Assembly: GCA_964428445.1 (NCBI GenBank)
Contig: CAYRYC010000001.1
Location: 13,704-77,703, forward strand
Source: an uncultured Methanosarcinales archaeon
GTDB taxonomy: Archaea > Nanobdellota > Nanobdellia > Woesearchaeales > SKGA01
Length of the DNA: 64,000 nt
Reading direction: 5' to 3'
Shown: positions 10,489-63,000 of the stretch, piece by piece
Layout: each line of letters starts with the position of its first letter
Position numbering within the stretch: position 1 is the stretch's first letter
The notes under the pieces: model-generated
Told to the model about the DNA's origin: nothing
Databases searched by the model: none
What the model saw: only the letters and a program-made list of their open reading frames with translations
Position numbers and translations under genes: made by a program

Positions 10489-11151
10489 ATGAAACTAGAT
10501 ATTCCTCTTATTCGTCAAGCAAAAGAATCTTTTGATTGCGGTCTTGCAAGTATAGCTATGATTCTTAAGTATCATGGAATTGAAAAAGAAATTATTGATA
10601 TCAAAAAAGAACTTACAATCCATAAAGATGTAGGATCATATATATCAGAGCTAGGAACGTACTTTCTAAAACAAGGATTTGATGCAAACATAGTTACAAT
10701 GAATCCTCATTTATTCACAAAACAACTCGAAAACAATTCTCCCAATCAATTAATATCTCATCTAAAAGAAAAAAGAAAGGAAATGAAACAAGAAATATCT
10801 GTCAATTCAGTAACATATTTGATAGATTTTTTAGAGCAAGGAGGAATAATTGATGTCAAAATACCTTCAGCCGAATACATTAAAAATGAAATTTCACAAG
10901 GAAGACCATTATGTTCATGGGCAACAACTAATTTTTTAACAAACAATTCATCAAAATTTAATTATCACTTTAATGTTATCACGGGAATCGATAATAAAAA
11001 TATTTATGTTAACGACCCAAGCCAAGACGCTTATGGTGGCAAAAAGCAATACGCTATTAATGATTATTTATACGCAATACATTCAACAGCACATGTTTGC
11101 CCAGAAGCAGCATCAATATTAACAATTAAAACAAACAGAGAAAAAAAATGA
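10489..11151 (+). CDS. peptidase C39-like (papain-fold) cysteine peptidase domain protein
   Basis: N-terminal IRQAKESFDCGLASIAMILKYHG is the Q...C-G-xA-S-xAMxL signature of C39/bacteriocin-processing-like peptidases. A downstream His is present. Confidence 0.5.
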   Translation: MKLDIPLIRQAKESFDCGLASIAMILKYHGIEKEIIDIKKELTIHKDVGSYISELGTYFLKQGFDANIVTMNPHLFTKQLENNSPNQLISHLKEKRKEMKQEISVNSVTYLIDFLEQGGIIDVKIPSAEYIKNEISQGRPLCSWATTNFLTNNSSKFNYHFNVITGIDNKNIYVNDPSQDAYGGKKQYAINDYLYAIHSTAHVCPEAASILTIKTNREKK

Positions 11152-11849
11152 ACTTAAAGCATTTAGAACAAGTTTTGGAAACTCCTTATCTAGGAATCGT
11201 ATCATTCGTTAGACACGGTGATAAAACCAAAGAAGGTCAATTATCAGAAAAAGGTAAAGAACAAGCTCGAAAACTTGGTCAAAAATTTAAACAAATTCAC
11301 AAAGAAGGCAAAGTATTTTTACGATCAAGTTCAAGCGATATGGACCGAGCAAACGACACAGTAAAAGAAATATTTAGTGCTGAACCAAAATATAACAAAC
11401 CAATAAGTAAAAATATGCAAGTAGAACCATATTTTTCTAACGAAATTATGGAAAAATATGTAAAAATCATGAAAGAAGAAAGTGAAGTTGCAGGATTTGA
11501 TTGGTTTCTTAATTCTTCACATGGAAAAGACTTAGCAAAACACTTTTCATACATACTTAGTTCAGCAAGTCAAGACGCTAAAAAAATCACAAAAAAAGAT
11601 TTAAATTTCCATTATATTCACGGAACACACGAAGCACTTCCAGAAGCTTTGCTAAAAAGAGTTCTTATCATAAAAGAAGGAAAATCAGGCTTTGATAGCA
11701 TCGATGATATTGGCGGAGGTCTCAAACTTGCAGAACCTATAAATTTCATTCTAGGTATAGATAATAAATACAAAGTAGAAATGAGAAACAAAACATACAA
11801 TGTTGATATGAAAGCATTAAATGATCTAGCTTCTCAATATACAGAATAA
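11148..11849 (+). CDS. histidine phosphatase superfamily (phosphoglycerate mutase-like) protein
   Basis: GIVSFVRHGDKTKEGQLSEKGKEQA carries the RHG catalytic motif. Start overlaps the upstream stop (ATGA). Confidence 0.5.
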   Translation: MNLKHLEQVLETPYLGIVSFVRHGDKTKEGQLSEKGKEQARKLGQKFKQIHKEGKVFLRSSSSDMDRANDTVKEIFSAEPKYNKPISKNMQVEPYFSNEIMEKYVKIMKEESEVAGFDWFLNSSHGKDLAKHFSYILSSASQDAKKITKKDLNFHYIHGTHEALPEALLKRVLIIKEGKSGFDSIDDIGGGLKLAEPINFILGIDNKYKVEMRNKTYNVDMKALNDLASQYTE

Positions 11850-11863
11850 ATTTTTATTTTATT

Positions 11864-14800
11864 TTAATTTTTTTCTAAAATTCTCACAATGCCATTGTCA
11901 GCATCGACTTCAACTAAGTCTCCATCCTTAAGAACTTTTGTTGCAATCTTAGTTCCTATAATACAAGGAACGCCTAGCTCTCGAGAAACAATGGCTGCAT
12001 GACATAATAATCCGCCTTCATCAGTAATAAATGCGGCTGCACGTCGCATACCTGTAATTAATTCCGGCGTAGTCATGCTTGCAACAAGAATTTCTCCTTC
12101 TTGAAGTTCATCAGCGTCTTTTTGAGTATAAGTTTTTTTTACTCTTCCTATAACCTTACCTTTAAAGGCAATAGTCCCTTTTAGTTCATTAACATTTTCT
12201 GTAAAAGGTTCAAATTCAGTTATTCCTTCTCTTTGTATAAGTTTGTCCACTTCCTCTTTTCCAAAAACTTCTTCATATTTACCATCATCTAAAATCAATG
12301 CAAAATATTTTGCACGTTCAGTTAAATCTTCTTCAGGTAAAATCTCTGTTTCTAGCCAAGTAACAAATTCGTCTTCAAATAAATTCATAATCTTTTCTTC
12401 ATTAAAACCAAGATTTGTTAATGTTTTTCTTAAGGCCCAATTAGCACGTACTAAAGCAGATTTACTCTCATCAAACATATATGATGTTCTTCTTATAATA
12501 TCTATTAACCAATCAATATATTCATCATCATATTTTGGAACTTCATTAGTTATTGGTTTTTGTTCTTCTTTAAGTGGACGTTTAATTTCATAAATATAAT
12601 TTTCTGCTAACCATTCTTTGGCCATGTATTCTGAATGAATAAATCCAAAAGATTCAGCAAGTTTTTTTGCTTCATTTTTCATTTCTTCATCATCAATCAA
12701 TTCTTTATGATATTTTTCTTTTATCTCGTTGATAGCATGATTCTCTTTGCTAATCGTTGTTAGTTTATGAGGTATAGTAATATTTAATTTAACTTTTTCA
12801 AATTCTTTTTCACCTAAAACAAATTTTAGTTGCTCTAAAGCAATTTGAGTCAAATAATAACCAGAAAACATGAAACCAACTTCTTCCTTATACGAACCAG
12901 AAAATTTCAATAAATCATCTTTTTTAGAACTTGGAAGAAGTTCCAAATCTTTTTCAATAGTATCATCTACTTTAATTAAAATTTCATAGACATCAGAATT
13001 TTTCTTTGAAATTAATTCTTTGAAATTAGTATCAAAACAAGCTTTTGTAGATTCGAAATCAACGGAACTTTTCTCACCATAAAAAATAGCCAGATATTTA
13101 GGATAATTAAAATACAAATTGTTTATCTTCGTTCCTTCTTTCAAGATACTCATCATACTTGACCAAGTTAAAGGAGATAAATTTCTTGCTCCTAATTTCG
13201 TCCATTTGATTACAGAAGCATCATTCAATATCTTAACAATGCCATTATCAGCATCGACTTCGACCATATCGCCCGTTTTAAGAATTCTTGTAAGTCCCTT
13301 TATACCTACAATGCAAGGAATCTTTAATTCTCTTGAAGTTATAGACGCATGGCATATTGCACCACCATGTTCGGAAAGTATTGCTACAGATTTTTTCATA
13401 GCAGGGAGAAAATCAGGAGTGGTTGTTGAAGAAACAATAATTTCATCTTCTTGGAATTGTCTTACTTCATCTATATTTTCAACACAACGAACTTTACCTT
13501 TTACTTTTCCAGGATACGCTGTTTGACCTTCAAGTAAAGTTTTCCCTTCAACATTCTCTTCCTTAATTTCTATGTTGAATTTTTCTTTAACAGCTTCCAT
13601 AGAATCCTGTAATTGACCGTCAGTGTATACAAAACCTTCTAATCTTTTTCTAAGAACATCATCTGAAGGTAAAATTCCTGATTCTACTTCTTCTAAAGAA
13701 ATAACGTCAACGAATTGTTGTTTCTCAGGAAAAAGTTTTTTCAAAGTGTTTCTAATAGTTCCTGTTGTTCCTGGAGCTAGTTGTTCTGTTTGTTTTCTCA
13801 CTATAATAAGATCTTCTAAAGGTAAATTCTTTTTATCGTAATATTCAATCGCCCACCACATGCAATCCCACCAAGCCCATGCATCTCGGATGTTCTTTAT
13901 GAAATCTAAAAAATCTTCTTTGCTTAAAGCAGGTTTATTGAGAATAATATCTTCAACTTTTTTGTAATGTTTAATAGTTTCTTCTTTCATTACTTCTTTA
14001 TCGAACTTTCCTGCCTGCTCTATCTTCCAATCTATACCTTTAGGATTATAGTAATAATATAGAAGATTATTTTTTCGTTCGAAAACACAATAAGGATGAA
14101 AAGTGAATGGTTCGTTTAACCAAGGAACGTCTCGTCTTGATTCTTCCTGATTGGTTAATTCTGCAATAATTAAAGGAAAGTCATGATGCATTAGTTGAGT
14201 GTATTCTTTTTTTTTATTCTTTTTTTCAAGAATTTTTACAATTCCATTGTCAGCATCAACTTCGACGAAATCGCCATCTTTGAGAACTTTCGTTGCAATT
14301 TTAGTTCCAACAACACAAGGAATGTTGAGTTCACGAGAAACAATAGAAGCATGACAAGTTAATCCACCTTCATCTGTAACAATTGCAGATGCTTTTTTCA
14401 TTGCAGGTACAACACTTGGAGTGGTAGCTGTTGATACTAAAATATCTCCTTTATTCATTTTATGCATATCAGCAGGTTCATTTATTATTTTCACAATTCC
14501 TTTTGCAAAGCCTTTACATGCCAGAGATCCTTTGATACTGTCCACATCCTCCAGGGTTTCTTCTCTTTCAAATGTTGAAATAAAATCTTGCGCGTCTTGG
14601 CCGTGAATAACAAGAACACCACCTTCTTTTTTAGAAAGAATTACATGAAAATCATATAGACTATCCAAAAGATCGCTGTCTACAGATCCGTTTGCAAGAC
14701 CTTCTTTGAAAAGTTCAGGAGTAAGACCTCTTGCTTGATTAAAAGAAATGTTAAGACGTTTAGCAATTTCTTTAAACATCATTTGCATATGATAATAACT

Positions 14801-16717
14801 TTTACTCTGGTGATCTTTTCTTCTAGGTTTTGCCCAAACTACTTTTCCTGTTAAACGAAGAATCATCTCGTTAAACTCATCCGGCTGAAGTTTTTTTATT
14901 ATGTCCTCTCGTTTTTCACCTATTTGTTTTCTTTTTAATCTTATTTCAATTAATTCTTCTTGGGGAGTTTTATTTTTAGAAAGATTATCCTTAATAAAAT
15001 CTAAAAACTCTTTTTCAGTAAATGCAGGTCCTGCATATACATAATATATCCAAGCATATTTTTCTGTGTGTTCAGAAAGTTTTTTGAAAAAATCAAGATG
15101 AGAAGTTTTCAAAGATTCAACTGTTCCTTGCAAGATATCTTTACTCCATTGCCCAGAATAAAACTCACTCATCAATTCTAAAAGAGCTTCTTCTTGATCT
15201 TGAGCATAGGAATTATATAAAGGATAAGTACATATATCATAATACTCTTGAAATTCTTCAACAGAACTTGTTTTAGATTCTAAAAACGATTTCATATTTC
15301 CTTCAACAAAAGAAAAATCTCGGAAATCCATTATAGAAAGTATCATACCATAAGCATCCAGCATTTTCATTTTATAACGAAATTGTTCGTACAAAGAGAA
15401 TAATTCGTCGTTAGAAAAAGTTGAAAAATCTTTTGTAAAAATATTCTCTTGACTCCATATATTAAATACATCTCCCATTTTAAGAGTTTTATCAATTAAT
15501 TTTTCTACATAATATCTATCTGCTTCAATATATGTTTTTAATTTATTGTGAGCTCTAATCCAAGTATCCATATCAACACAATAATCCAATTTTCTTTTTC
15601 TACTTGCAATACCGCCCATCAATCGCGGAATATCAAACTCTTTTGCTTGTATTTCAAAAGATTCCATCCACAAATAATTTCTAAACATATGAGAGTTAAA
15701 ATCATTTGCAACACTAACTAAATTAGCGTCAGTATATACAAATCCTTTTTTCGAACTAAGCGTTGTTATAGGTCGACTTTGCACAATGTAGAATTCTCCG
15801 CCTTCCATAGCCCATTCTATATCCACAGGAAAACCATAATGTTTTTCTATCTTAACAGTAAGCTTAGATAATTCTACGATTTCATCTTTAGTAAGAGCTT
15901 GTTTAGAACCTTCTGATAAAGTCAGTTCCTTCCAAACATTACCACCACCAACATCACGAACAAGTTCTCTAGGCTGCTCATTAATTTGAACATCAGTAAA
16001 AGACCAATCTCGTTTATCAACAACATAACTATCAGGAGTTATTTGTCCAGAAACAATAGATTCGCCAAGACCGAAACCAGCCTCGATAATAATTTGATCA
16101 TAATCTTGAGTAACAGGATGAACAGAGAAAGCAATTCCAGAAACTTCGCTGGCAATCATTTTCTGAACAACAACAGCTACAGAAATTTGTTCATCATGCA
16201 ATTCTTTTTCAAAACGATAAGCAATAGCACGAGGAGTAAATAAAGAAGCCCAACAAAGTTGAACATTCTTCAGTAATGTTTCTTCAGTTGTGTTCAAGAA
16301 AGAATCCAATTGACCAGCCCAAGCTGCGTCTGCACTATCTTCAGAAGTTGCTGAAGAACGAACAGCGACAAAAGGAGCATTAAGATTTTTGAATTCAAAT
16401 AAAATTTCTTCTTTTAGATCTTCAGGAAAAGCTCTACCTTTAATCAAACCTTGAATAGCCTCGGAAGCAAAATCAACAGTATGAACTGCCTCGGTATCTA
16501 CTTTATCAAGTTCAACTTGAATCTCAACTTTAAGATTGCTTTCTTCGACAAAACGATCAAAAGCAGAAGACAAAACAACATAACCAGGAGGAACAGCAAT
16601 ACCCGCTTGAGTCATCTCTCCAAGAGAAGCTCCTTTACCTCCAGCAATATCTACATTCTTGCTGTTCAAATCAGAAAATCGTTTAATAAAAACCATAAAA
16701 GTACTATATTCACCCAA
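11864..16717 (-). CDS. giant PEP-synthase/PPDK-like protein: N-terminal PPDK_N ATP-grasp domain followed by three phosphohistidine (PEP-utilising mobile/swivel) domains
   Basis: 1617 aa. N-terminus FSDLNSKNVDIAGGKGASLGEMTQAGIAVPPGYVV...GGEFYIVQSRPIT is PPDK_N. Three swivel domains carry the catalytic His: GGLTCHASIVSRELNIPCVVG, GGAICHASITSRELKIPCIVG, GGLLCHAAIVSRELGVPCIIG. Each ends with G-D-x-V-E-V-D-A-D-N-G-I-V. No PEP-utilising TIM-barrel C-terminal domain. Confidence 0.75.
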   Translation of the reverse strand: MGEYSTFMVFIKRFSDLNSKNVDIAGGKGASLGEMTQAGIAVPPGYVVLSSAFDRFVEESNLKVEIQVELDKVDTEAVHTVDFASEAIQGLIKGRAFPEDLKEEILFEFKNLNAPFVAVRSSATSEDSADAAWAGQLDSFLNTTEETLLKNVQLCWASLFTPRAIAYRFEKELHDEQISVAVVVQKMIASEVSGIAFSVHPVTQDYDQIIIEAGFGLGESIVSGQITPDSYVVDKRDWSFTDVQINEQPRELVRDVGGGNVWKELTLSEGSKQALTKDEIVELSKLTVKIEKHYGFPVDIEWAMEGGEFYIVQSRPITTLSSKKGFVYTDANLVSVANDFNSHMFRNYLWMESFEIQAKEFDIPRLMGGIASRKRKLDYCVDMDTWIRAHNKLKTYIEADRYYVEKLIDKTLKMGDVFNIWSQENIFTKDFSTFSNDELFSLYEQFRYKMKMLDAYGMILSIMDFRDFSFVEGNMKSFLESKTSSVEEFQEYYDICTYPLYNSYAQDQEEALLELMSEFYSGQWSKDILQGTVESLKTSHLDFFKKLSEHTEKYAWIYYVYAGPAFTEKEFLDFIKDNLSKNKTPQEELIEIRLKRKQIGEKREDIIKKLQPDEFNEMILRLTGKVVWAKPRRKDHQSKSYYHMQMMFKEIAKRLNISFNQARGLTPELFKEGLANGSVDSDLLDSLYDFHVILSKKEGGVLVIHGQDAQDFISTFEREETLEDVDSIKGSLACKGFAKGIVKIINEPADMHKMNKGDILVSTATTPSVVPAMKKASAIVTDEGGLTCHASIVSRELNIPCVVGTKIATKVLKDGDFVEVDADNGIVKILEKKNKKKEYTQLMHHDFPLIIAELTNQEESRRDVPWLNEPFTFHPYCVFERKNNLLYYYYNPKGIDWKIEQAGKFDKEVMKEETIKHYKKVEDIILNKPALSKEDFLDFIKNIRDAWAWWDCMWWAIEYYDKKNLPLEDLIIVRKQTEQLAPGTTGTIRNTLKKLFPEKQQFVDVISLEEVESGILPSDDVLRKRLEGFVYTDGQLQDSMEAVKEKFNIEIKEENVEGKTLLEGQTAYPGKVKGKVRCVENIDEVRQFQEDEIIVSSTTTPDFLPAMKKSVAILSEHGGAICHASITSRELKIPCIVGIKGLTRILKTGDMVEVDADNGIVKILNDASVIKWTKLGARNLSPLTWSSMMSILKEGTKINNLYFNYPKYLAIFYGEKSSVDFESTKACFDTNFKELISKKNSDVYEILIKVDDTIEKDLELLPSSKKDDLLKFSGSYKEEVGFMFSGYYLTQIALEQLKFVLGEKEFEKVKLNITIPHKLTTISKENHAINEIKEKYHKELIDDEEMKNEAKKLAESFGFIHSEYMAKEWLAENYIYEIKRPLKEEQKPITNEVPKYDDEYIDWLIDIIRRTSYMFDESKSALVRANWALRKTLTNLGFNEEKIMNLFEDEFVTWLETEILPEEDLTERAKYFALILDDGKYEEVFGKEEVDKLIQREGITEFEPFTENVNELKGTIAFKGKVIGRVKKTYTQKDADELQEGEILVASMTTPELITGMRRAAAFITDEGGLLCHAAIVSRELGVPCIIGTKIATKVLKDGDLVEVDADNGIVRILEKN

Positions 16718-36080: not shown

Positions 36081-38582
<2,502 letters not shown>

Positions 38583-38588: not shown

Positions 38589-39671
38589 TCACCTTATTAA
38601 TTTGACTATTCCTTTATTTGCATCAACTTCTACAAGATCACCATCTTTTAATAGAGTGGTAGCATTACCAGTTCCGACAATGCAAGGTATTCCTAACTCT
38701 CTGGAAACAATTGCGGCATGGGAAAGTAAACCTCCTTGATTAGTAATAATAGCAGCGGCTTTTTTACAAGCAACGAATAGTTCTGGAGAAGTTGTTTCTG
38801 CTACCAATATTTCTCCTTCTTTCATTTTATTAATCAATTCTTTAACAACATCAAAATTGTTGTAGCCATAAACAAAAAGATTTACATTTCCTCTAACAAG
38901 TCCTTTGTTAGCAGGAGTTCCTTTTACAACAAAAATTTCTTTTACAAGAGGACATTCTTGCCCTTTGAATGAGGCAATTTGTTTTTTTGCATCCACACCT
39001 ATAAGGACTGTTTTATTTTTTTCAAAAGATGTAAAGTATGCTTGTTTTCTTCTAAACAGAATAGATTCTTTTACTTCTTTATCATTAAACAGAGCAAGTA
39101 ATTCTTCGTGAGTATATTGTTGTAATAAATCAAAATTTATCTCGAACTTTTCACTTAGTTGATTTAGACATCTGTTAATATAACTTTGATTTCCAAAAAA
39201 GACTTTATTCAGATCTTCTCTCCGAGCGTTCTTCATATTTGCTAAACTGGACAAGTTTGTTTTTGTTATTTCGCAATCTTTTTTGAAGGCTCGATCTACA
39301 TAAAAAAATTCTGTCTTAATATAGTAGGTATGAAATAAAACAATATAATTGAGAAATTTTTCTAGATTAGCTTTAGAAATATCCTTGGAAAAAAACGATT
39401 CAATAAATTCATTAAACTCAGTTACATAATTATCAAACTCATTCACATAGTTCGAAAATAATCTAGGAGACGATAATAACCTTACACCATAATCTAATGT
39501 CTTATCAACAACAGAGCGAGGTAAATAGCCAATCCAATCTGTCCCATCAAAAAGAAAAACAGCATTAAGATTGGAATAATTTTTCACTAAAGTATCATTA
39601 ACAAAAAAAGGCATTCCTCCTACTTCAAACAAACGTTGATAGTCAAGAATAGTTTTTTTCTTAAACAACAT
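38589..39671 (-). CDS. stand-alone PEP-utilising (phosphohistidine swivel) domain protein with N-terminal substrate-binding-like region; no ATP-grasp domain
   Basis: C-terminus EILVAETTSPELFVACKKAAAIITNQGGLLSHAAIVSRELGIPCIVGTGNATTLLKDGDLVEVDANKGIVKLIR is nearly identical in pattern to the three swivel domains of the 1617-aa protein. Confidence 0.65.
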   Translation of the reverse strand: MLFKKKTILDYQRLFEVGGMPFFVNDTLVKNYSNLNAVFLFDGTDWIGYLPRSVVDKTLDYGVRLLSSPRLFSNYVNEFDNYVTEFNEFIESFFSKDISKANLEKFLNYIVLFHTYYIKTEFFYVDRAFKKDCEITKTNLSSLANMKNARREDLNKVFFGNQSYINRCLNQLSEKFEINFDLLQQYTHEELLALFNDKEVKESILFRRKQAYFTSFEKNKTVLIGVDAKKQIASFKGQECPLVKEIFVVKGTPANKGLVRGNVNLFVYGYNNFDVVKELINKMKEGEILVAETTSPELFVACKKAAAIITNQGGLLSHAAIVSRELGIPCIVGTGNATTLLKDGDLVEVDANKGIVKLIR

Positions 39672-39672
39672 T

Positions 39673-40299
39673 TTATTTCACCAATTTATCTAACGCCTTA
39701 GGAACAAAGTAACAAATTTGTTCTACTGCTTTTTCATATTCTTTCAAACCTAAACCATATGCATTGGGGATCGTGTCGTCCGGATTACCGGTAACAAATG
39801 AAGCTAAAGATGAAATTAAAGGTTTTTCTGATATATTATCATATATAGAAATTACTTGTTTGTTGTTAGATTCAGCCATAGAAAAAACTGCTAAAGCATC
39901 TGCATGTACAATAGTTTGATCTTGTTTAGATTTCACTTGCCCTTTAATATTAAATTTTTTTAGAACTTGTTCTCTATGGTGGAGCTCTTCATTAGCAAAA
40001 TATGAAACGGCTTCATTAAATAAACTTGTAACAAAAGCAAGATTTTCCTGATTTAAGGCGATTTTATAATCACTACACTTTGAAGGAGAATATATCTTTC
40101 TCTCTATTCCTAAATCAACAATAGAACTTTGTACACTTAAAGGAATAGCTCCTGTTTTAGATAAAGCTACTAAAGTTCCACTTGAGCGAGTTCCATAATC
40201 TAGTTTTTGTTTAAGTAAATAATTTTGTCCTACAAGCTCGGCCACAGGAGATCTTCCTTGATTTCCTGTACAAACGAATTCTATCATATTTTTAATCAT
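39673..40299 (-). CDS. low-molecular-weight protein-tyrosine phosphatase / ArsC-like (CX5R) protein
   Basis: MIEFVCTGNQGRSPVAE carries the V-C-x5-R P-loop. Its stop lies 2 nt from the start of the swivel gene. AGAGGT Shine-Dalgarno site 8 nt upstream. Confidence 0.65.
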   Translation of the reverse strand: MIKNMIEFVCTGNQGRSPVAELVGQNYLLKQKLDYGTRSSGTLVALSKTGAIPLSVQSSIVDLGIERKIYSPSKCSDYKIALNQENLAFVTSLFNEAVSYFANEELHHREQVLKKFNIKGQVKSKQDQTIVHADALAVFSMAESNNKQVISIYDNISEKPLISSLASFVTGNPDDTIPNAYGLGLKEYEKAVEQICYFVPKALDKLVK

Positions 40300-40370
40300 A
40301 ATAATTACCTCTTGTTACTACTGAGCGATGACTCGTATATAAATCTATGTGGGAGTTCACCACCCACAAC

Positions 40371-40380
40371 ATTTATATTC
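40371..40380 (+). promoter_or_regulatory. TATA box ~26 nt upstream of GTG start of TrmB-like regulator
   Basis: atttatattc; GTG at 40401. Confidence 0.35.
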
Positions 40381-40400
40381 TCTGAAGAAATACAATCACA

Positions 40401-41117
40401 GTGAAAGAACAATTACTTGCAATAGACTTTGACGATAAGGAAGCAGACATATACACAGCTCTTCTTAAGTTAGATAATGCTAGTGTAAGTGAACTTCTCA
40501 AAAATACATCAATTGAACGAAGAACGATTTACGATGTTTTAGAACGACTCATACAAAAAGGAAGAGCAAGTTATTTCGAAGAAAATAATACACGAAAGTA
40601 TAAAGCCATTTCTCCTGAAATTATTCTTGAAGAACTGAAACACAAACAAAAAGAATTCGAAGCAATAATTCCCAAACTTCAAAGTTTACAAGAAACACCT
40701 AGTGGTGCTAAAGTTGAAATACTCAAAGGATTAAAAGGATTAAAAGCAATATTTCTTGAAGCAATACAGGCAGAACAGACGCACTATTCTTTTGGAGACC
40801 TAAGCCCACTCATGTATGAAGAAAAATATGCAAAAGAAGTAGCAAAATTTCTCAAAGAAATTGAAAAAAAAGGAATGAAGGAAAAAATACTTTATGGAAA
40901 AGGAGATCCTATTAAAAAAATCAAAGGAGGAGAATATAGAACAGTCAACAAAGAAGATATAGCTCCTTCACCAACACTTATTTGTGGAGATGTTGTTACG
41001 CAATATATTTATACTGATCCAATAACCATAATAAAAATAACAAGTAAAGAAGTTTCAGAAACATACAAACAATATTTCAATCATTTCTGGAAACTTGCTA
41101 AAAGAGATAAAAAATGA
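40401..41117 (+). CDS. TrmB-family HTH transcriptional regulator
   Basis: LLAIDFDDKEADIYTALLKLDNASVSELLKNTSIERRTIYDVLERLIQKGRASY is a TrmB-type winged HTH. GTG start. Confidence 0.6.
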   Translation: MKEQLLAIDFDDKEADIYTALLKLDNASVSELLKNTSIERRTIYDVLERLIQKGRASYFEENNTRKYKAISPEIILEELKHKQKEFEAIIPKLQSLQETPSGAKVEILKGLKGLKAIFLEAIQAEQTHYSFGDLSPLMYEEKYAKEVAKFLKEIEKKGMKEKILYGKGDPIKKIKGGEYRTVNKEDIAPSPTLICGDVVTQYIYTDPITIIKITSKEVSETYKQYFNHFWKLAKRDKK

Positions 41118-42166
41118 AACGTAAGAACTCACTAATTACTCCAATAATATTCGCAGCACCATTAGCATATGTAGGATTCGATAGACTAATTGGAGGAATA
41201 ACATCTAATATTCCTCTCCTGCCTCTTATTTCAATAGCTCTAGGAAGTTTTGTTATAACATATTTATTACAACATATACAAAAAAAATATAATAATCCTA
41301 AAACATTCATAGCTTATCATATTTTCTTAACAACAATTTTGTCTTTAGCATTTCTTGCATTAGGAGAAATTATAGCTAAAATAATAAATTTTTTAGGATA
41401 TGCAAAAGAATATTTCTTAGAAATAAGTCTTATTGTAGGTATATGTATCTATGGGTGGGCTCTTTTCGCAGGAAATACAATTATTAACAAAAAGAAAAAA
41501 ATCTATTCTTCAAAGATAAAAAAAGCTTTAAGAATTATTCAAATAAGCGATACTCATCTTCACGGACCATATGTTAGTAAGAGAGTCGATAAAATAATGA
41601 GAAAGTCCATGAAGGAAAATCCTGATTTGATGGTTATAACAGGAGATTTCATTGACAAACCAGGCTTACCTAATGAAACTATGTTTGATGCTATGAAAAA
41701 AGCAAAAATCCCCATATACTATGTTTCAGGAAATCACGAAATAGATTATATTGGTAAAGAAAGAACTAAGAAACTTATTAACAAAATAGGATTAAAATAT
41801 TTATCTAATGAAAGCATTCTTTCTAATGGAATTATGATTACAGGGATAGAAGATGACGCTAGCAATAAACAAATCAAAGATCTTGTGAAGAAGAAAACAA
41901 ACAAATTTCATCTTTATCTAATACATAAACCTCTACGCTTAGATTTAGTAAAAAATAAAGTCGATATGACTCTTTCAGGACATGTACATGCAGGACAAAT
42001 ATTTCCTGGTAAACAAATAGCTAGAGGCTTCTTTAAGTTTGTTTATGGATGGTATAATTATGGAAATACAAAAGTCTATGTTTCTCCAGGAACCCGATCA
42101 GGAGAAATGTATATTAGATTAGGAAGTAGAAACGAAATCACAGTAATTGATTTATTACCTAAATAA
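41114..42166 (+). CDS. membrane-anchored calcineurin-like metallophosphoesterase
   Basis: N-terminal TM helices, then IIQISDTHLHGP, ITGDFID, GNHE and GHVHAGQ metallophosphatase motifs. Start overlaps the upstream stop (ATGA). Confidence 0.65.
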   Translation: MKRKNSLITPIIFAAPLAYVGFDRLIGGITSNIPLLPLISIALGSFVITYLLQHIQKKYNNPKTFIAYHIFLTTILSLAFLALGEIIAKIINFLGYAKEYFLEISLIVGICIYGWALFAGNTIINKKKKIYSSKIKKALRIIQISDTHLHGPYVSKRVDKIMRKSMKENPDLMVITGDFIDKPGLPNETMFDAMKKAKIPIYYVSGNHEIDYIGKERTKKLINKIGLKYLSNESILSNGIMITGIEDDASNKQIKDLVKKKTNKFHLYLIHKPLRLDLVKNKVDMTLSGHVHAGQIFPGKQIARGFFKFVYGWYNYGNTKVYVSPGTRSGEMYIRLGSRNEITVIDLLPK

Positions 42167-57005: not shown

Positions 57006-60000
57006 CTATTTCTCTTTAGTAAATGTAGAACTATAATCTAATTCAGCAAATGCTGCTTGAAGGAAAGGATGTAGTTTTTCTTTCTCTTCTTCAGATAAAG
57101 TTTCATATATTTTAACAGCTTCTGAATATTTCTTTTTAGAAATAAGTAACTCGTCAAATTCTAAAGCAAGTGTTGCATTGTAAAGAAGTTCTTGAACTCT
57201 CTTGAAAGGCTCTTCAGATAAAGACATCTCGTTAATTGATCGAGCAACATCTTCAGTTTCAGTTTTAGAAATACTTAATACTTGTTCTCTAAATAATTCT
57301 AGGCTAAGAAGTAATTCTTCTCTAGATAATAATTCTTCTTTACTTAGTAATTTATGTATTTCTTCTTGATCCTTAAGAGATTTTTTTACTTTATTAGTGG
57401 TGGAAAGTTTTTCAATGGATCGATTATTTTCTTTCATACGACTATTTGTAAAAATGAATCCAAAGAAATTAGTAAATAATAAACTTAATTTATGTTGAGG
57501 AACATCTACCGATTTTGTTGAAACAGATTCTTTTTCCAGACCAGATAAATTTCTTAATAATTGTTTTTTCTGTGCTGCGGTTAATAATACTTGTTTAGCC
57601 TTATGACCTAAAGCAATAATTCCATATTTACTTGCTATTTTTATAGCTCCTAATAATATTAATGCCAATAGACCAAATCCTATTATACGAGCTGTTTTGT
57701 TATCAAATAATTCTCCTGCTTTACATGCTTCGCAAGAACCGCCACAATCAACACCTTTTTCATTTTGATTTTTTATACCATCAAAACAAGTTCCGCAGGG
57801 TTCACAAGGACCGCCACAATCAACACCTAATTCTCCGTAATTTTGAATACCATCAAAACAATTTTTACAAGGAACACAGAAAGGACCGCCACAATCAATT
57901 TCTTCTTCGAAATTATTAAAGATTCCATCAAAACAAGTTTTACACACATCACAGAAAAGTCCGCCACAATCAATATCTTCTTCTCCTTGATTTTTTATAC
58001 CATCATTACAACTAGCACAAGGTTTACATTCTCCACCACAATCAACGCCTTCTTCGAATTCATCCTGTATACCATTTTCACAGAAAATTAATTGTTCACA
58101 GCTTTCTTCAAAATATAATTCATTATTAGTGTAACAACTATTGTTATCAACGCAGGTTCTATTTTTTGTTCCATTCTCATTGCAAGGAGACCAGTCAGGG
58201 CAGAACCAATTAGGAGTACAAAATCCTCCGCCTCCACCGCCTCCACCAGGAGGAGTTGTAGTTGTTCCAATTTTCAAAGTATTGTTTGTTGTAGCCCAAG
58301 AGGATGCAAAATAAACATCATAGGCAAGACAGTTCCATTCATATGTCGCCAAAGGTAAACCTGAAACAATCCAAGAATTACTATCTGAATTTCCGGAAGA
58401 TGAAATAGAATTTTCATAAAAAATTACTCCGGTATTAGCATTCCAAACGCTTAAACTAAAATTGTATAAGTCTGTATTTGAAGTAACATTACATGTAAAT
58501 GTCTGTGTTGTGGAAGTTGATTGTGTATTATCAGTAGGAGCAACAAGAGTTACTAAAGGAGCATCTACAAAATCACAGGCTTCATTAAGATTAGCAGGAG
58601 CATATGTACAATTCCATAGTTCTCCATTAGTTCCAACTCCTGAACTAGAATAATTATTACAAATAAAGAACGATTCTTTTGTTGAATTAGCAGGATCTAA
58701 ATCTAAATCATATATTCCAGTCCATAAACCATAAAGATTATCATCCGATGGAGTTGTTATGGATCCTGAACAGGTCACAAGATCTCCTGAATAGCTTGCA
58801 GGAATTGTTCCTGCATTAACAACGGATCCATTTGTTGCTTGATAATATACATTGCATTTTGAGATGCTTTCTGAATCGTCACTGTAGAACTGCGAACTCA
58901 CACTTATTGTTATTAATGAACTATTATAGAAATTATTTGTTAATAAAAATGATCCTGATTTATACGCAGGAATTATATTAATTGTTTTTGATTCGGAAAC
59001 GGCTGTTGCATAATTACCCGTATCATCCCGTGCCCAGAATGAAAAATTATATGTTCCGCTTTCAACCATATTTCCTATTGTGAATTTACAATCGGAAGCA
59101 TCATCTCCTGAAACAAGATAGGAGTTCGGACCTGAAGCATTGTAGAAACAACGATCAATGGTTCCATCTTGATAATCTCCATTCTCAGTATCATTTGCAG
59201 AAACCCCAAACCACACACCAGAACCATAGCTAATATTTACTGAGCTAGCAGAAGGTTCGCTAATTGCTAAATTAACCGTTGGAGAAATATTATCAAGTAT
59301 TCTAAAATCAATGCTATGTCCTGTTGAAGGAACAGCAATGGTAAAATATAATTCAAAAGCATCATTAAAAATAGTGTCGTTGGTAGGAATGTTTACTGTC
59401 ATAGATATTGAACTAGCACCGGAACCGTTTACTGCATCCTGAAGAACTATTTGTCCTTTTGTATTAGAACCATCTTCAGAATATGATTGAGTTTCAAAAT
59501 TAGCCTGTGTTGATCCTGTTGTAATAAAATTTTCTCCTTGTAAACCAAGATGAACGGGAAGAGCAACACCTAAAAGATTACCAAGCCATAAATAAGCAGT
59601 AGAAGAATAGGAACCATATGTAAATTGTATTGTGAAATTATTTCCTAATCTTACTCTATTATCCCATAGAGCATAAAGTCCGTCAAATGTTTGCGAACTT
59701 GTTGAAGGAGGAACATATGTTCCAGTCATAAGAGTATTGACAATACAATATGCTTGAGCCGCGCAATCGCTATCAACGCAATCAATGGAACCATCGCCAT
59801 CATTATCAATGTCATCATTACAAACTTCTGCACTGCAAGAAGCAAATCCTAAACAATCACTATCCTGGCAATCAACTTGACCATCGCCATCATTATCATA
59901 GTTATCAGAACAAAGATAAGCATTATTTTCTATAGCAAGATAAAACTGATGATCATATGATGAAAGTTGATATAAACAATCAGCATCGTTCTCATCGATT

Positions 60001-63000
60001 TGAGAATCATAATCATTATCAGAACCATCTGCACATGCATCCCATTCGGTTAATTCTATATTAGGACAAGCATAACAAATACCATTTGAAAAAAGACCGA
60101 ATGAACCAAACGCTTGATAACAATCAGGATCAAAACAATCTTTAGGCCCATCCAAATCATCATCTATATTGTTATCGCAATAGAAATCAATTCTTGGAAG
60201 AAAAAAGAAAAATGCATCTGAAGCATTAAACTCGTAGTCTAAACAAACATCATACACATTTTCAGGATTAGCTACACCAATACAATTAGGATCGGAACAA
60301 TCTATTCCTCCACTTGCATTTGCACTATATCCTGCACCATTCCAATAGTATGCATCCATATCATTATCTATATTATCAAAACACCAGGACGCGTTAAGTG
60401 CTTCTGATGAAGGAACTTCAGCTTTATCCGCACAATCATAGTCATCGAAATCAGCATCATTGCTGAAAGTTTGATTGAATAATAATGCATATAGAGTTTG
60501 ATTATTTGTCCAACCAGGATTCGGCATTGAACCTGCTTCAGAATCATAATCATTATCAAACTCATCATAGCAATTTAGTTCTCTTTCTAATTCGCAAACT
60601 TTTCCATTGCTTAATGTTTCGTTACCACAATCTTCATCGGGATGATTATCAGAACCATAGGAAAAATATCCTCCCCAATGACAATCCATTCCAGCTCCAC
60701 TTGTTAGGTTGAAAGAATAACCGTTTGCTCCACCAGTGGTTGTATACCAAAGGTCCCAATCGTTATCAACACCATCATTACATTCAGAACCGAGTTCATT
60801 ATCATCTAATGTTGCTCGACAATGGGAAGAACAATCATATTCGGCATCATTATAGGAACCCGTTAGACTTCCTTCACAATCTAGTTCTTGCCAATAGTCA
60901 TTATCAAAACCATCGGTACAATTTAATTCAATTTTATATTGACATACTTGTGTTGCATTACTTGGATTAATAATTACATCACAATCTTTATCTCTACAAT
61001 CAATATCAGTTAATCCTGTATTAGCATGACCCCACATATCATCTTCTAGAGCCCAATCATTATTGTATTGATCGAAACATGCAGCCGCATCAATATACTC
61101 TCCACCATAACCACAACGACCTGTTGTGTCACCGTTCGTATAATAATCGTCGTGGGCAGGAGGACCTGGTTTAGTATTACAATCAATATCATAACAATCA
61201 TAGGATTGAAAATCAAAACAATATTGTTCGTTTCCACTACAATCTAAATAATCAAAGTCTCCGTTCTTTGTATCATTACAAGAATCCCAAGTCATACTTG
61301 GATCGTTTAGGCGAATTTCCCATTCGTTATTGTTATCGCTGCTCCATCGTGGACGACTATCACCAATCGGGATATATGTTAGATCGTCGAAATAAATTGT
61401 TATGTTAACAGTATCTTCGTAAGCAACTAAACCTTCTAAATAATTTAATGTAAGTTCAATAATATATCCTTCATCCATGCTTACGTTTGATTCATTGAAA
61501 TAAATAAGTAAAGTTGTATCTATGTTTGCAATCTCCGTTCCACCTGCTTGATATGATCGAAGAATAACTTGGTTCGTATGCGTTTCTGATTCGTTGAGAG
61601 TATCCTGATCTACAGGAATATTATTTTTATCTAAGAAATAAACAAATTCACCGTTGCTTGATCCAGTACCTGGGAAAATTTTTGTAACATTTTCTATTTG
61701 AGGAAAACCTCTAACAAAAATAGTTGCTGTTTTAGAAACAGACCAATGAGATAATCTCATTTTGAATGTACCATTAGGCATTGTGTGTTGCGTGTATTCA
61801 ATACTTGTTTCTCCAAAACTAGAACTGAACGATGTTGTGTTTATTTCCATGTCTCCTATAGGAATATCATTTGCCAATGTTCCGTGAGAACCGGAAGGAG
61901 AATAGTATAAACTAGTGTTGGCAAAAGATTGTTTTGGTTTATTACTATATGTAACTCCCCAACATTCAGGATCTGCAGTATCAATTAATGAATCTGGTTC
62001 TGTTGGATTATCAATTTCATCATGACAAAATAATTCTACATTTGTTCCGCCGTATTTTGAAACTGCGAACGCAACGTCTCCGTCTTGATCTGCTTTTATG
62101 GTGTTTTGTGCAAACATGTCTTCTGCGGATTTTGCATTTACTGAATTTGCAATATCACCAAGTGTCCATGTTATTGGACGTACATGGATATTCCAATTTA
62201 CAGAATCATTAACAACAATTGGTGAAAGCGAAGCATTGTAATGACCACACTCAAGAACTCTCCAAGGAATCCAGTTATCGGAAGTTCCATTTCCCGTTGA
62301 ATTTATGCTGTCAGAAGAAACTAGTACATAGGTGACACTGACGTTTCCATCTGTTATGTTAGACGTTAAGGTAGTGTTAGCAAAGATTTGGCGACAGCCA
62401 GCTAAACCGTCATCGTAACAATTGGACTGGTTAATATAACAACCCACAATGTCACCCAATGTACCAGTAATATGATCGAAAGGTATTGTAAAATTATAGA
62501 GATAGTTTCCTGCCGCAGGAAGCGGACTTGGTTCAAGATAATAGAATCCTTCAGGATATGTTGGATAAATGATATTATTTGCTTGAACTGTAAAACTTAC
62601 ATTGACTTCGTCAACGCTGTTAGAACAATTTCGTTCATCGATTACTGTAAAAGTTAGATTACTTATTCCGACGGTGGAAGAATTAGGAGTAACAGTTATT
62701 GTTCCGTTAGAATATAGATTGAATGTTAAATTTCCGCTTGTTGTATTTTGATAATAATATAATATGTCATCATTAAAATCAGTGGCGTCAAGTTGACAGG
62801 AATAATATGCTCCTTCGAAAAGATCAGTAGAACAATTAAATAAGATTTCAGGCGGATTATTAATGCAGGTTTGAACAGAACCATCAATGGCATCGCCAGT
62901 TACCCAGCTCGACATATCCATATCATGGAAGGCAAGATATGTTGGAACAAACAATGTTAACACTAGAGCTATAAATAGCACTACGCCTAACACCCTTTGC

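What the first reader, a model, noticed from the sequence alone, without database searches (positions are those of the whole stretch)
38589..40299. Operon of an LMW protein-tyrosine phosphatase (CX5R) and a stand-alone phosphohistidine swivel-domain protein
The 360-aa protein has the substrate-binding-like region plus a swivel His domain of RPH/PEP-synthase type, but no ATP-grasp. It is translationally coupled to a CX5R low-molecular-weight phosphatase, with the phosphatase stop 2 nt from the swivel gene start.

A phosphocarrier His domain paired with a Cys phosphatase reads like a two-part phospho-transfer/reset switch. The swivel domain might be charged in trans by the ATP-grasp of the 1617-aa protein, which sits 22 kb away and has near-identical swivel sequences.
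Basis: inference. Interest (0 to 1): 0.5.

Follow-up and report, generated by a model that had tools for sequence, protein, structure and literature searches.

The report
Cysteine phosphatase partnered with phosphohistidine-carrier kinase genes
In a tiny DPANN archaeon, an unusual YwlE-like cysteine phosphatase is translationally coupled to a stand-alone phosphohistidine-carrier protein; the phosphatase sat beside such a carrier gene in all 20 related loci that could be judged, so the two belong to one phosphate-handling system whose chemistry is still untested.

Summary
Window 39673-40299(-) encodes a 208-aa LMW-PTP-fold protein with P-loop VC10TGNQGR16S. One nucleotide downstream, 38589-39671(-) encodes a 360-aa protein with an RPH-like substrate-binding domain, a His318 swivel domain and no ATP-grasp.

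The pairing is not chance. Of 22 distinct phosphatase loci, all named ones from Woesearchaeota/Nanoarchaeota, 20 could be judged. All 20 have a swivel-domain gene immediately adjacent: stand-alone ~360-aa or ~455-509-aa proteins, or ATP-grasp-fused enzymes with one to five swivel modules. A divergent TrmB-like regulator recurs.

Arsenate reductase is excluded: only one Cys is conserved and there is no ars context.

The phosphatase is atypical. It carries a ~55-aa helical insertion, a polar residue at P-loop position 5, and Asn in place of the general-acid Asp (Asn 57%, Asp 21% across 156 family members).

Trans-charging by a separate ATP-grasp is supported by relatives, which have one ATP-grasp per one to about ten swivel modules. 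However, the swivel sequences are 45-56% identical to those of the 1617-aa protein, not "near-identical".

The best reading is an accessory phosphatase of a split RPH-type dikinase that probably discharges the phospho-His carrier. Product dephosphorylation and a His-to-Cys relay remain open. This is a new variant of known kinds and a good experimental lead.

The parts
39673..40299 (-). 208-aa LMW-PTP-fold (YwlE-like) cysteine phosphatase-like protein. Features: P-loop VC10TGNQGR16S, Asn179 at the general-acid position, and a ~55-aa helical insertion at residues ~54-115.
38589..39671 (-). 360-aa stand-alone phosphocarrier protein. N-terminal ~245-aa RPH-like (RIF-binding-like) domain plus C-terminal phosphohistidine swivel domain with catalytic His318. 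No ATP-grasp.
38109..38582 (-). 157-aa orphan ORF, 6 nt downstream of the swivel gene, with its own AGGTGA ribosome-binding-like motif. Possibly a third operon member. Its 3' end overlaps the gyrB 3' end by 12 nt.
   Evidence: ORF and sequence. No Pfam, NCBIfam or PADLOC hit. Its only match among 5.8 billion proteins is itself. Absent from all related loci.
40401..41117 (+). TrmB-family winged-helix regulator, transcribed divergently from the phosphatase. Likely regulator of the operon.
   Evidence: Pfam TrmB E 5.7e-15. Homologous divergent TrmB-like genes lie next to the phosphatase in L006, L008, L012, L014/L034, L021 and L024.
40300..40400 (.). 101-nt divergent promoter region with two outward-facing archaeal TATA-like boxes. 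ATTTATAT at 40344-40337 (minus strand) lies ~36 nt before the phosphatase ATG. ATTTATAT at 40371-40378 (plus strand) lies 22 nt before the TrmB GTG.
   Evidence: Sequence. Inverted repeat ATATAAAT/ATTTATAT. Promoter function is inferred from the archaeal TATA consensus.
11864..16717 (-). 1617-aa dikinase: PPDK_N ATP-grasp (residues 23-324) followed by three [helical domain + His swivel] modules. It holds the only ATP-grasp in the window and is the candidate in-trans charger of the 360-aa protein.
   Evidence: Translation. Pfam PPDK_N E 3.8e-93 plus 3 PEP-utilizers domains. tblastn finds no other ATP-grasp or swivel in the window. Its ATP-grasp is 63-67% identical to that of dikinases adjacent to the phosphatase in L010, L019, L026 and L032.
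11148..11849 (+). 233-aa histidine-phosphatase-superfamily (RHG-motif) protein, convergent with the 1617-aa dikinase gene and 14 nt from its 3' end. A second, unrelated phosphatase fold placed beside a dikinase.
   Evidence: Pfam His_Phos_1 23.5 bits, above the 21.7 cut-off. Motifs VRHGDK, GKEQARKLG and HGTHE. No PDB sequence hit.

Best explanation
The two genes encode parts of a split, RPH-type phosphohistidine dikinase system typical of DPANN archaea and CPR bacteria.

The 360-aa protein is the 'H' component. It has a small RPH-like acceptor-binding domain and a swivel domain whose His318 carries the phosphoryl group. It has no ATP site, so an ATP-grasp (PPDK_N) must charge it in trans. The only ATP-grasp in the window is the N-terminus of the 1617-aa protein, which already serves three such modules in cis.

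The 208-aa protein is a dedicated accessory phosphatase of this system. Proposed mechanism: Cys10, in a YwlE-like P-loop, attacks a P-N phosphoramidate, most likely phospho-His318 on the swivel loop. This forms a Cys~P intermediate that is then hydrolysed, which discharges (resets or throttles) the carrier. The divergent TrmB-like regulator probably controls the operon.

Shown here:
- the folds and motifs of both proteins;
- the absence of an ATP-grasp in the 360-aa protein;
- strict synteny of the phosphatase with swivel genes;
- the one-grasp-to-many-swivel organisation in relatives.

Inferred, not shown:
- the identity of the ATP-grasp donor;
- that the phosphatase substrate is the phospho-His rather than the kinase's product;
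- the physiological acceptor.
For: Functional linkage:
- There are 22 non-redundant (<95% identity) phosphatase loci. All 20 that can be judged have a swivel-domain gene immediately adjacent, with gaps from a 13-nt overlap to ~220 nt (11 co-directional, 8 convergent, 1 divergent).
- Stop/start overlap or a 1-nt gap occurs in the window, L009, L021 and L022. This suggests stoichiometric co-expression.
- The partners are heterogeneous: ~360-aa proteins, ~455-509-aa proteins, and PPDK_N-fused proteins of 834, 1167, 1172 and >2612 aa. The constant element is the swivel/dikinase machinery.
- A neighbour-joining tree of the phosphatases groups them by partner type.

P-N rather than pTyr chemistry:
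- The best sequence and Foldseek matches are YwlE-type arginine phosphatases.
- P-loop position 5 is polar (Q here; H/Q/S/N/R in the most frequent family residues). It is Ile in most pTyr LMW-PTPs and Thr in pArg phosphatases (PMC7772506).
- The D-loop reads N-A-Y/F-G, similar to YwlE's DPFG, rather than DPYY.
- The general-acid Asp is dispensable in the family: Asn 57%, Asp 21%. This fits a leaving group that needs no protonation.

Charging in trans:
- No locus has more than one ATP-grasp, yet loci hold up to five swivel modules. CPR operons have PPDK_N followed by three or five swivel proteins.
- Split dikinases HpeHI, CreHI and PpsAB are experimentally established (PMC12167813).
- In L024 the gene order is TrmB / phosphatase / swivel / PPDK_N.

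A phosphatase seems generally required beside these enzymes:
- Histidine-phosphatase-superfamily genes occupy equivalent positions at w11148-11849 and in L005, L013, L030 and L039.

A regulatory role for PPDK-derived autophosphorylating His kinases has precedent in VadK (PMC13400623).
Against: - No biochemical test and no complex prediction was possible, so neither the substrate of the phosphatase nor the acceptor of the kinase is known.
- A dedicated phospho-His phosphatase on a metabolic dikinase would burn ATP futilely unless it is regulated.
- YwlE, the closest P-N phosphatase, keeps its Asp. Asn is therefore not diagnostic of P-N chemistry and could mean low or no hydrolytic activity.
- The 360-aa family is abundant in CPR bacteria that have no such phosphatase. 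The phosphatase is thus not intrinsic to the carrier's function.
- In the window, the presumed ATP-grasp donor is 22 kb away and the rest of the genome was not examined for other PPDK_N genes.
- Known split-dikinase pathways (Cre, Hpe) include a phosphohydrolase step acting on the small-molecule product, which is a rival role (PMC12167813).
Confidence: 0.42

Rival explanations
1. Product phosphatase. The dikinase module phosphorylates a hydroxyl group on a small molecule. The LMW-PTP-like enzyme later removes that phosphate, which would serve as a transient handle or protecting group, or as part of a regulated cycle, as in the Cre and Hpe aromatic pathways.
For: - The Hpe pathway described with HpeHI includes a later dephosphorylation step on the small molecule (PMC12167813).
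- LMW-PTPs classically hydrolyse aryl phosphates (own knowledge).
- The RPH-like N-domain implies a small-molecule acceptor.
- The phosphatase phylogeny tracks the type of substrate-binding domain of its partner, as expected if specificity is for the product.
- A TrmB-type ligand-responsive regulator is conserved next door.
Against: - No conserved intervening enzyme (oxidase, carboxylase or transferase) accompanies the pair, so a kinase plus product phosphatase would be a bare futile cycle.
- The general-acid Asp, which is needed to expel poor O-leaving groups, is replaced by Asn, Ser or Gly in most of the family.
- The aromatic D-loop pair of pTyr/aryl-phosphate enzymes is missing.
- The partners have very different substrate domains.
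Confidence: 0.27
2. Phosphocarrier relay. The LMW-PTP-like protein is not primarily a hydrolase. It accepts the phosphoryl group from the swivel phospho-His on Cys10, as PTS EIIB accepts it from EIIA, and passes it to a further acceptor. The pathway would be ATP -> His -> Cys -> X.
For: - The nucleophile Cys10, Arg16 and Ser17 are each retained in at least 97% of the family, while the Asp that serves as acid/base for leaving-group protonation and Cys~P hydrolysis is mostly lost.
- Tight translational coupling is typical of interacting proteins.
Against: - No candidate downstream acceptor is conserved in the neighbourhoods.
- 21% of family members keep the Asp.
- No precedent exists for an LMW-PTP-family member acting as a carrier.
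Confidence: 0.1
3. Regulatory dephosphorylation at another site. The phosphatase removes an inhibitory O-phosphate (for example on the Ser preceding the catalytic His) from the swivel protein or the ATP-grasp, analogous to PSRP/PDRP control of PEP synthase and PPDK.
For: - Swivel domains adjacent to the phosphatase carry [L/C/M]-S-H, and 15 of 16 lack the Thr at -2. Non-adjacent paralogues in the same loci mostly have T-[C/S]-H. Fisher p = 2.7e-4.
- PEPS and PPDK are known to be regulated by phosphorylation next to the His (own knowledge).
Against: - No cognate regulatory kinase is evident.
- LMW-PTP enzymes are not known to act on pSer (own knowledge).
- The LSH motif is also the consensus of CPR homologues that have no phosphatase, so it may only reflect family history.
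Confidence: 0.08
4. Unrelated neighbour. The 208-aa protein is a housekeeping pTyr phosphatase or an arsenate reductase, and its position next to the swivel gene is incidental.
For: - Pfam calls it LMWPc.
- There is a weak NCBIfam hit to arsenate reductase, E 0.004 and far below the cut-off.
Against: - Adjacency holds in 20 of 20 informative loci, across three gene orientations and in proteins only 33-50% identical to the window protein.
- Only one Cys is conserved, so the Cys10/82/89 relay of Trx-coupled ArsC is absent.
- No ars, ACR3 or ArsR genes occur in any neighbourhood.
Confidence: 0.03

Closest known systems
YwlE / PtpB / DARP protein arginine phosphatases (LMW-PTP family)
   Same: - The CxGNxxRS P-loop with Cys, Asn, Arg and Ser is present.
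- The S-S/A-G, Q-T and xMxxxN motifs are present.
- The D-loop ends in F/Y-G, as in YwlE's DPFG.
- P-loop position 5 is polar rather than Ile.
- YwlE hydrolyses a P-N bond.
   Different: - 208 aa versus ~150 aa, with a ~55-aa helical insertion replacing the W-loop region.
- The second P-loop Cys, the redox partner in YwlE, is Gly.
- Position 5 is Q/H/N/S/R, not Thr.
- The general-acid Asp is Asn.
- The organism is archaeal (DPANN), no McsB context is evident, and the protein is strictly syntenic with phospho-His swivel genes.
Two-component RPH-like dikinases HpeHI, CreHI and PpsAB (phenylphosphate synthase), and single-chain rifampin phosphotransferase RPH
   Same: - Relatives encode the ATP-grasp as a separate ~300-320-aa protein, like HpeI.
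   Different: - At 360 aa it is much smaller than the 71-kDa HpeH.
- One ATP-grasp serves many (3 to about 10) different swivel modules, either split or fused in giants.
- In the window the ATP-grasp is not adjacent.
- The hosts are ultra-small CPR/DPANN organisms rather than aromatic degraders.
- The acceptor is unknown.
- An LMW-PTP-like phosphatase is a fixed neighbour.
SixA acting on NPr~P (PTS-Ntr) and ArcB HPt: a dedicated protein phospho-His phosphatase
   Same: The concept is the same: a small dedicated phosphatase resets a phospho-His carrier protein. Histidine-phosphatase-superfamily genes, SixA's superfamily, also sit beside these dikinases (w11148-11849, L005, L013, L030, L039).
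   Different: The 208-aa protein has a different fold and a different nucleophile (Cys versus His). No PTS or two-component context is present. The comparison rests on own knowledge of SixA and was not tested here.
PTS EIIA(His~P) to EIIB(Cys) phosphotransfer
   Different: The structural similarity is far weaker than to true phosphatases. No transporter or HPr is present. The energy source would be ATP through an ATP-grasp, not PEP.
PSRP/PDRP (DUF299) regulation of PEP synthase and PPDK; VadK (Rv1127c)
   Same: In both cases an accessory protein, or autophosphorylation, controls a swivel-His enzyme. VadK shows that a PPDK-derived enzyme can act as a regulatory His kinase.
   Different: The fold and chemistry are different. 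The regulatory Thr at -2 is absent from the 360-aa protein (L-S-H). No DUF299 gene was seen.

Membership tests
LMW-PTP superfamily (Pfam PF01451 LMWPc) | Rossmann-like four-stranded alpha/beta fold with a P-loop at the N-terminus of helix 1 | tested here: met
   [not shown]
LMW-PTP superfamily (Pfam PF01451 LMWPc) | C-X5-R-(S/T) signature with nucleophilic Cys, P-loop Asn, Arg and Ser | tested here: met
   The window protein has VC10TGN13QGR16S17. In the family of 156 sequences: C 152, N 155, R 153, S 155.
LMW-PTP superfamily (Pfam PF01451 LMWPc) | D-loop general acid/base Asp (DPYY or DPYG) | tested here: not met
   Asn179 aligns with the Asp of YwlE and 4egs. Family composition: Asn 89, Asp 33, Ser 10, Gly 10 of 156.
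LMW-PTP superfamily (Pfam PF01451 LMWPc) | Full-length match to the family profile above the curated cut-off | tested here: inconclusive
   The score of 34.6 bits exceeds the 23.2 cut-off, but the matched stretch is only residues 6-42. The precomputed Pfam hit is marked 'faint' or 'weak' in most homologues.
Protein arginine phosphatase (YwlE type) | Thr at P-loop position 5, critical for pArg activity (PMC7772506) | tested here: not met
   Gln14 in the window protein. The five commonest family residues there are H/Q/S/N/R, and Thr is not among them.
Protein arginine phosphatase (YwlE type) | Cognate McsB-type arginine kinase in the genome | not tested
   Only a 64-kb window was available. No McsB-like gene was noticed among the ORFs that were annotated.
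Arsenate reductase, thioredoxin-coupled LMW-PTP type (pI258 ArsC) | Three-cysteine relay (Cys10, Cys82, Cys89) | tested here: not met
   Only one alignment column has Cys in more than 20% of 156 sequences, and that is C10. C10 is also the only invariant Cys among the 12 closest homologues.
Arsenate reductase, thioredoxin-coupled LMW-PTP type (pI258 ArsC) | ars operon context (ArsR, ArsB/ACR3) | tested here: not met
   No such Pfam families occur in the annotated neighbourhoods. The neighbours are swivel, PPDK_N and TrmB genes.
Split RPH-type dikinase, swivel/substrate ('H') component (HpeH, CreH, PpsA) | PEP-utilizers swivel domain with the catalytic His in a GGxxxHAAI motif | tested here: met
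   PF00391 E 1.8e-27. GGLLSH318AAIVSRE aligns to the PEP synthase catalytic loop. H318 is invariant in 72 homologues.
Split RPH-type dikinase, swivel/substrate ('H') component (HpeH, CreH, PpsA) | RIF-binding-like acceptor domain N-terminal to the swivel | tested here: met
   [not shown]
Split RPH-type dikinase, swivel/substrate ('H') component (HpeH, CreH, PpsA) | Separate ATP-grasp ('I') partner that charges it | tested here: inconclusive
   No stand-alone PPDK_N is in the window; the only ATP-grasp is fused in the 1617-aa protein 21.9 kb away. Relatives do have adjacent stand-alone PPDK_N genes (L005, L013, L014, L018, L024, L038). Phosphotransfer itself cannot be tested with these tools.
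PEP synthase / PPDK | C-terminal PEP/pyruvate-binding TIM-barrel domain (PEP-utilizers_C) and an N-terminal ATP-grasp in one chain | tested here: not met
   Only the swivel domain matches. NCBIfam PEP synthase models score 101-106 bits against cut-offs of 598-740. Neither PPDK_N nor PEP-utilizers_C is found.
PTS EIIB-type cysteine phosphocarrier | LMW-PTP-like topology with a P-loop Cys that accepts phosphate from a phospho-His protein | tested here: inconclusive
   [not shown]

The most novel reading that the evidence does not exclude
The 208-aa protein is the founding member of a DPANN-specific branch of the LMW-PTP fold that works directly on the phospho-His loop of swivel domains. It would be either the first Cys-based dedicated protein phospho-His phosphatase, or a Cys phosphocarrier. 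In the more radical second version it completes an ATP -> His(swivel) -> Cys relay, a PTS-like phosphorelay powered by an ATP-grasp. This would operate within the 'one ATP-grasp, many swivel modules' arrays of ultra-small archaea and bacteria, whose purpose is currently unknown.
Probability: 0.12. Interest if true: 0.85.

Novelty: new variant of a known kind. Interest (0 to 1): 0.58.

Why it matters
Dedicated protein phospho-His phosphatases are few; from own knowledge they are SixA, PHPT1, LHPP and PGAM5. None of them uses the LMW-PTP fold.

DPANN archaea and CPR bacteria devote large stretches of their tiny genomes to arrays of RPH-like swivel modules. These range up to ten genes, or single proteins of 1,600 to more than 2,600 aa. 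They are served by a single ATP-grasp, and no function is known for them.

A phosphatase family that is an obligate neighbour of these genes gives a concrete experimental handle:
- It identifies which swivel subclass is special.
- It suggests that the system is a regulated phospho-switch or relay rather than a simple antibiotic kinase, which is how such genes are currently annotated in resistome surveys (PMC8651080).
- It offers natural Asp-to-Asn variants for studying phosphoramidate chemistry in Cys phosphatases.

Tried and rejected
- **Arsenate reductase.** Rejected: only one Cys is conserved and there is no ars context.
- **Anti-phage defence system.** No PADLOC hit for the phosphatase, the swivel protein, the 157-aa ORF, the 233-aa protein or the 1617-aa protein. 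TrmB gave only weak HTH-type hits.
- **True PEP synthase or PPDK.** Rejected: no PEP-utilizers_C and no PPDK_N, and scores are far below the NCBIfam cut-offs.
- **The 157-aa downstream ORF as a conserved system component.** No homologue anywhere except itself, and none in related loci. It is lineage-specific or possibly not a real gene.
- **Homology between the window's 233-aa His_Phos_1-like protein and the 266-aa RHG-motif family of L005, L013 and L030.** Not detectable by BLASTP or phmmer. They share only the superfamily motif.
- **BLAST similarity between the 360-aa N-domain and the linker domains of the 1617-aa protein.** None by tblastn. Profile comparison extends weakly into the helical region. 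One compare call failed on a frame error.
- **Literature linking an LMW-PTP-like phosphatase to swivel proteins, or describing multi-swivel arrays in DPANN/CPR.** Nothing found. One search was malformed.
Full report
**What is in the sequence**

The interval 38589-40299 holds two minus-strand ORFs. The upstream one (39673-40299, 208 aa) begins MIKNMIEFVC10TGNQGR16SPVAE, a CX5R(S) P-loop. Its TAA stop (39675-39673) is followed by a single A and then the ATG (39671) of a 360-aa ORF (38589-39671). A GGTGA Shine-Dalgarno-like motif lies 6 nt upstream of that ATG.

Two things were missed. A third co-directional ORF (157 aa, 38109-38582) starts 6 nt after the 360-aa stop and has its own AGGTGA motif. 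A TrmB-family regulator (40401-41117, +) is transcribed divergently. The 101-nt spacer carries two outward-facing ATTTATAT boxes, 36 nt before the phosphatase ATG and 22 nt before the TrmB GTG. The window has about 32% G+C. It also encodes diphthamide synthase and a TrmB regulator. Together with relatives named Woesearchaeota/Nanoarchaeota, this points to a DPANN archaeon.

**The 360-aa protein**

- Pfam finds only the PEP-utilizers swivel domain (residues 284-354, E 1.8e-27).
- The motif GGLLSH318AAIVSRELGIPC aligns residue-for-residue with the catalytic loop of PEP synthases. H318, R324 and E325 are invariant in 72 homologues.
- There is no PPDK_N and no PEP-utilizers_C domain. NCBIfam PEP synthase models score about 100 bits against cut-offs of 598-740.
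- The AF2 model is very confident (pLDDT 95).

The family is huge, with more than 5,900 hits, most of them ~360 aa and many from Patescibacteria.

**The 208-aa protein**

Pfam LMWPc matches only the P-loop region (residues 6-42, 34.6 bits). The AF2 model (pLDDT 92) is nevertheless a complete LMW-PTP fold:
- Foldseek best hit is B. subtilis YwlE 4etn.
- Sequence searches against the PDB also place it nearest the YwlE-type enzymes.

An exhaustive profile search finds 151 cluster representatives at E <= 1e-30, nearly all 200-240 aa. Across 156 members, the conserved residues are C10, N13, G15, R16, S17, S39-S40-G41, Q128-T129, Y153, P160, G182 and Y188, plus E105 and R109 on a long inserted helix.

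The family departs from canon in four ways:
- A ~55-residue helical insertion replaces the W-loop region.
- The second P-loop Cys is Gly.
- P-loop position 5 is polar (Q here; H/Q/S/N/R among the commonest family residues), not Ile as in pTyr enzymes and not Thr as in pArg enzymes (PMC7772506).
- The general acid/base Asp of the D-loop is Asn179 here (aligned). In the family it is Asn in 57%, Asp in only 21%, and otherwise mostly Ser, Gly or Glu.

Only one Cys is conserved, which excludes the Cys10/82/89 relay of thioredoxin-coupled ArsC.

**Is the pairing real?**

I collected phosphatase homologues by word-indexed search, genome scan and metagenome scan. I then called ORFs and searched them with phmmer for swivel, ATP-grasp, TrmB and N-domain queries. 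After collapsing sequences more than 95% identical, 22 loci remain.

Two loci are uninformative. L031 is cut inside the gene. L023 has only 85 nt upstream and no swivel gene downstream.

In all 20 others a swivel-domain gene is the immediate neighbour, with gaps from a 13-nt overlap to ~220 nt:
- Co-directional: window, L005, L006, L008, L009, L011, L012, L021, L022, L024, L030.
- Convergent: L013, L014, L019, L020, L025, L026, L032, L033.
- Divergent: L010.

The partners differ in architecture:
- ~360-aa proteins like the window's (L012, L020, L021, L022, L025).
- ~455-509-aa proteins with a different, related N-domain (L005, L006, L008, L009, L011, L013, L024, L030).
- PPDK_N-fused enzymes of 834 aa (L032), 1167 and 1172 aa (L019, L026) and more than 2612 aa with five swivels (L010).

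L010 is next to the phosphatase most similar to the window's (50% identity). A divergent TrmB-like gene recurs in the window, L006, L008, L012, L014, L021 and L024. Given perhaps 5-10 swivel genes per ~1,000-gene genome (my estimate), chance adjacency would be about 1-2% per locus, so 20 of 20 is decisive.

**Is the carrier charged in trans?**

The window contains exactly one ATP-grasp, at residues 23-324 of the 1617-aa protein at 11864-16717, and four swivel domains: three in that protein plus the 360-aa protein.

Related loci never show more than one ATP-grasp but hold up to five swivel domains.
- In Woesearchaeota L005, a 314-aa stand-alone PPDK_N sits among five stand-alone swivel proteins.
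- L024 reads TrmB / phosphatase / swivel / PPDK_N.
- In CPR bacteria, homologues of the 360-aa protein lie in operons of PPDK_N followed by three (L018) or five (L038) swivel proteins, or in arrays of about ten (L039).

Split RPH-like dikinases in which a separate ATP-grasp protein charges a swivel/substrate protein are experimentally established: HpeHI, CreHI and PpsAB (PMC12167813). The ATP-grasp of the 1617-aa protein is 63-67% identical to those of the fused dikinases that sit beside the phosphatase in L010, L019, L026 and L032. This ties the two window loci together by association. Trans-charging is thus well supported as a principle. The identity of the donor is inferred. The swivels are 45-56% identical, not 'near-identical'.

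**What does the phosphatase do?**

Shown: it is a system-specific partner of swivel proteins.

Inferred: its substrate. I favour the phospho-His of the swivel loop, for four reasons.
1. The constant feature across heterogeneous partners is the swivel domain.
2. Stop/start coupling suggests stoichiometric, interacting proteins.
3. The nearest characterised relatives hydrolyse a phosphoramidate (YwlE). The active site lacks both the hydrophobic position-5 residue and the aromatic D-loop pair of pTyr enzymes.
4. The family tolerates loss of the general acid. That is hard to reconcile with O-phosphate esters bearing poor leaving groups, but acceptable for an N-protonatable imidazole leaving group (mechanistic inference from LMW-PTP enzymology, own knowledge).

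A related observation is that histidine-phosphatase-superfamily genes, the superfamily of the phospho-His phosphatase SixA, occupy equivalent positions:
- a 233-aa RHG-motif protein (11148-11849) convergent with, and 14 nt from, the 1617-aa gene in this very window;
- a 265-269-aa RHG family in L005, L013 and L030;
- one inside the CPR array L039.

Two unrelated phosphatase folds beside the same kinase machinery argue that phosphate removal is an integral part of the system.

The main rival is dephosphorylation of the small-molecule product, as in the Hpe and Cre pathways. The correlation between phosphatase clades and partner N-domain type fits this reading. It is weakened by the absence of any conserved intervening enzyme and by the missing general acid.

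A more radical reading is that, with Cys, Arg and Ser retained but the acid/base lost, the protein holds Cys~P and relays it, as PTS EIIB does. EIIB domains are recovered as remote structural relatives, including one from a IIA-IIB complex.

One more observation bears on this. Swivel domains adjacent to the phosphatase carry [L/C/M]-S-H, whereas non-adjacent paralogues in the same loci mostly carry T-[C/S]-H (Fisher p = 2.7e-4). CPR homologues without any phosphatase share the LSH motif, so this may be family history rather than recognition.

**Comparison with the known, and novelty**

The components belong to known superfamilies: LMW-PTP, and the RPH-type split dikinase 'H' component. However, the phosphatase fails a defining catalytic feature (the Asp) and the YwlE specificity determinant (Thr). 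The 360-aa protein is a minimal version of the H component.

I found no paper linking an LMW-PTP-like protein to swivel domains or describing these multi-swivel arrays. CPR versions are currently counted as rifampin-resistance genes (PMC8651080). A PPDK-derived regulatory His kinase, VadK, was described recently (PMC13400623).

I rate this a new variant of known kinds. It rests on solid comparative-genomic linkage and an untested but readily testable mechanism.

**Verdict**

- Observation: confirmed.
- Interpretation: partly supported. Linkage is confirmed, trans-charging is plausible, and reset of the phospho-His is the leading but unproven mechanism.
- Interest: 0.58.

Noticed in passing
window 11148-11849 (+): A 233-aa histidine-phosphatase-superfamily protein (His_Phos_1 23.5 bits, above the cut-off; motifs VRHGDK, GKEQARKLG, HGTHE). 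It is convergent with the 1617-aa PPDK_N + 3-swivel gene and 14 nt from its 3' end. The LMW-PTP-like gene occupies this same position beside fused dikinases in L019, L026 and L032.
   Followed up: partly
L005:7190-7990; L013:3843-4640; L030:1635-2444: A 265-269-aa family with an N-terminal 'SRHGKKF' motif and a weak His_Phos_1 hit (E 8e-4, below the cut-off). It lies inside swivel/PPDK_N clusters next to or near the LMW-PTP-like gene. It has no detectable similarity to the window's 233-aa RHG protein.
   Followed up: partly
window 11864-16717 (-); L010:1-7839 (-): Giant dikinases built of one ATP-grasp followed by three (1617 aa) or five (>2612 aa, truncated by the locus end) repeats of [helical domain + His swivel]. 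They are the fused counterparts of the split arrays in L005, L018, L038 and L039. Their function is unknown.
   Followed up: partly
L039:1-15080; L038:435-8083; L018:3606-8179: CPR (Patescibacteria) loci with 3 to about 10 consecutive stand-alone swivel proteins and a single PPDK_N. L039 also contains a Fic-domain gene and a His_Phos_1-like gene (FLIRHAEQ motif) inside the array. No LMW-PTP-like homologue is present in these bacterial loci.
   Followed up: partly
L005:1-13525: The Woesearchaeota B3_Woes cluster combines five swivel proteins, PPDK_N and both phosphatase types with a stand-alone PTA_PTB phosphotransacetylase-like gene, a malic enzyme and an AMP-binding acyl-CoA-synthetase-like gene. 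This hints at a link to pyruvate, acetyl-phosphate or acyl metabolism.
   Followed up: no
window 38109-38582 (-): A 157-aa ORF that is tightly spaced after the swivel gene and overlaps the gyrB 3' end by 12 nt. It has no homologue other than itself among 5.8 billion proteins and no family hit. It is an orphan gene or a spurious ORF.
   Followed up: yes
window 57006-63065 (-): A 2019-aa ORF with no Pfam family at E <= 0.001.
   Followed up: no
window 41114-42166 (+): A 350-aa protein with a hydrophobic N-terminal half and a calcineurin-like metallophosphoesterase domain. Its start overlaps the TrmB gene stop by 4 nt. It is another phosphoesterase in the same divergent unit. It was not conserved next to TrmB in the other loci examined.
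   Followed up: no
window 38589-39671 (-), residues 117-159 and 208: The RPH-like N-domain of the 360-aa family has invariant K147 and R208, and near-invariant T120-E-F-F-Y124, D126, R151 and N155. These are shared between CPR bacteria and DPANN archaea at ~40% overall identity. This suggests one common, possibly anionic, ligand rather than diverse xenobiotics.
   Followed up: no
swivel His loops in the window and L005-L034: Swivel domains encoded next to the phosphatase have [L/C/M]-S-H before the catalytic His; 15 of 16 lack Thr at -2. Non-adjacent paralogues in the same loci mostly have T-[C/S]-H, as in PEP synthase and PPDK (9 of 12). Fisher p = 2.7e-4.
   Followed up: partly
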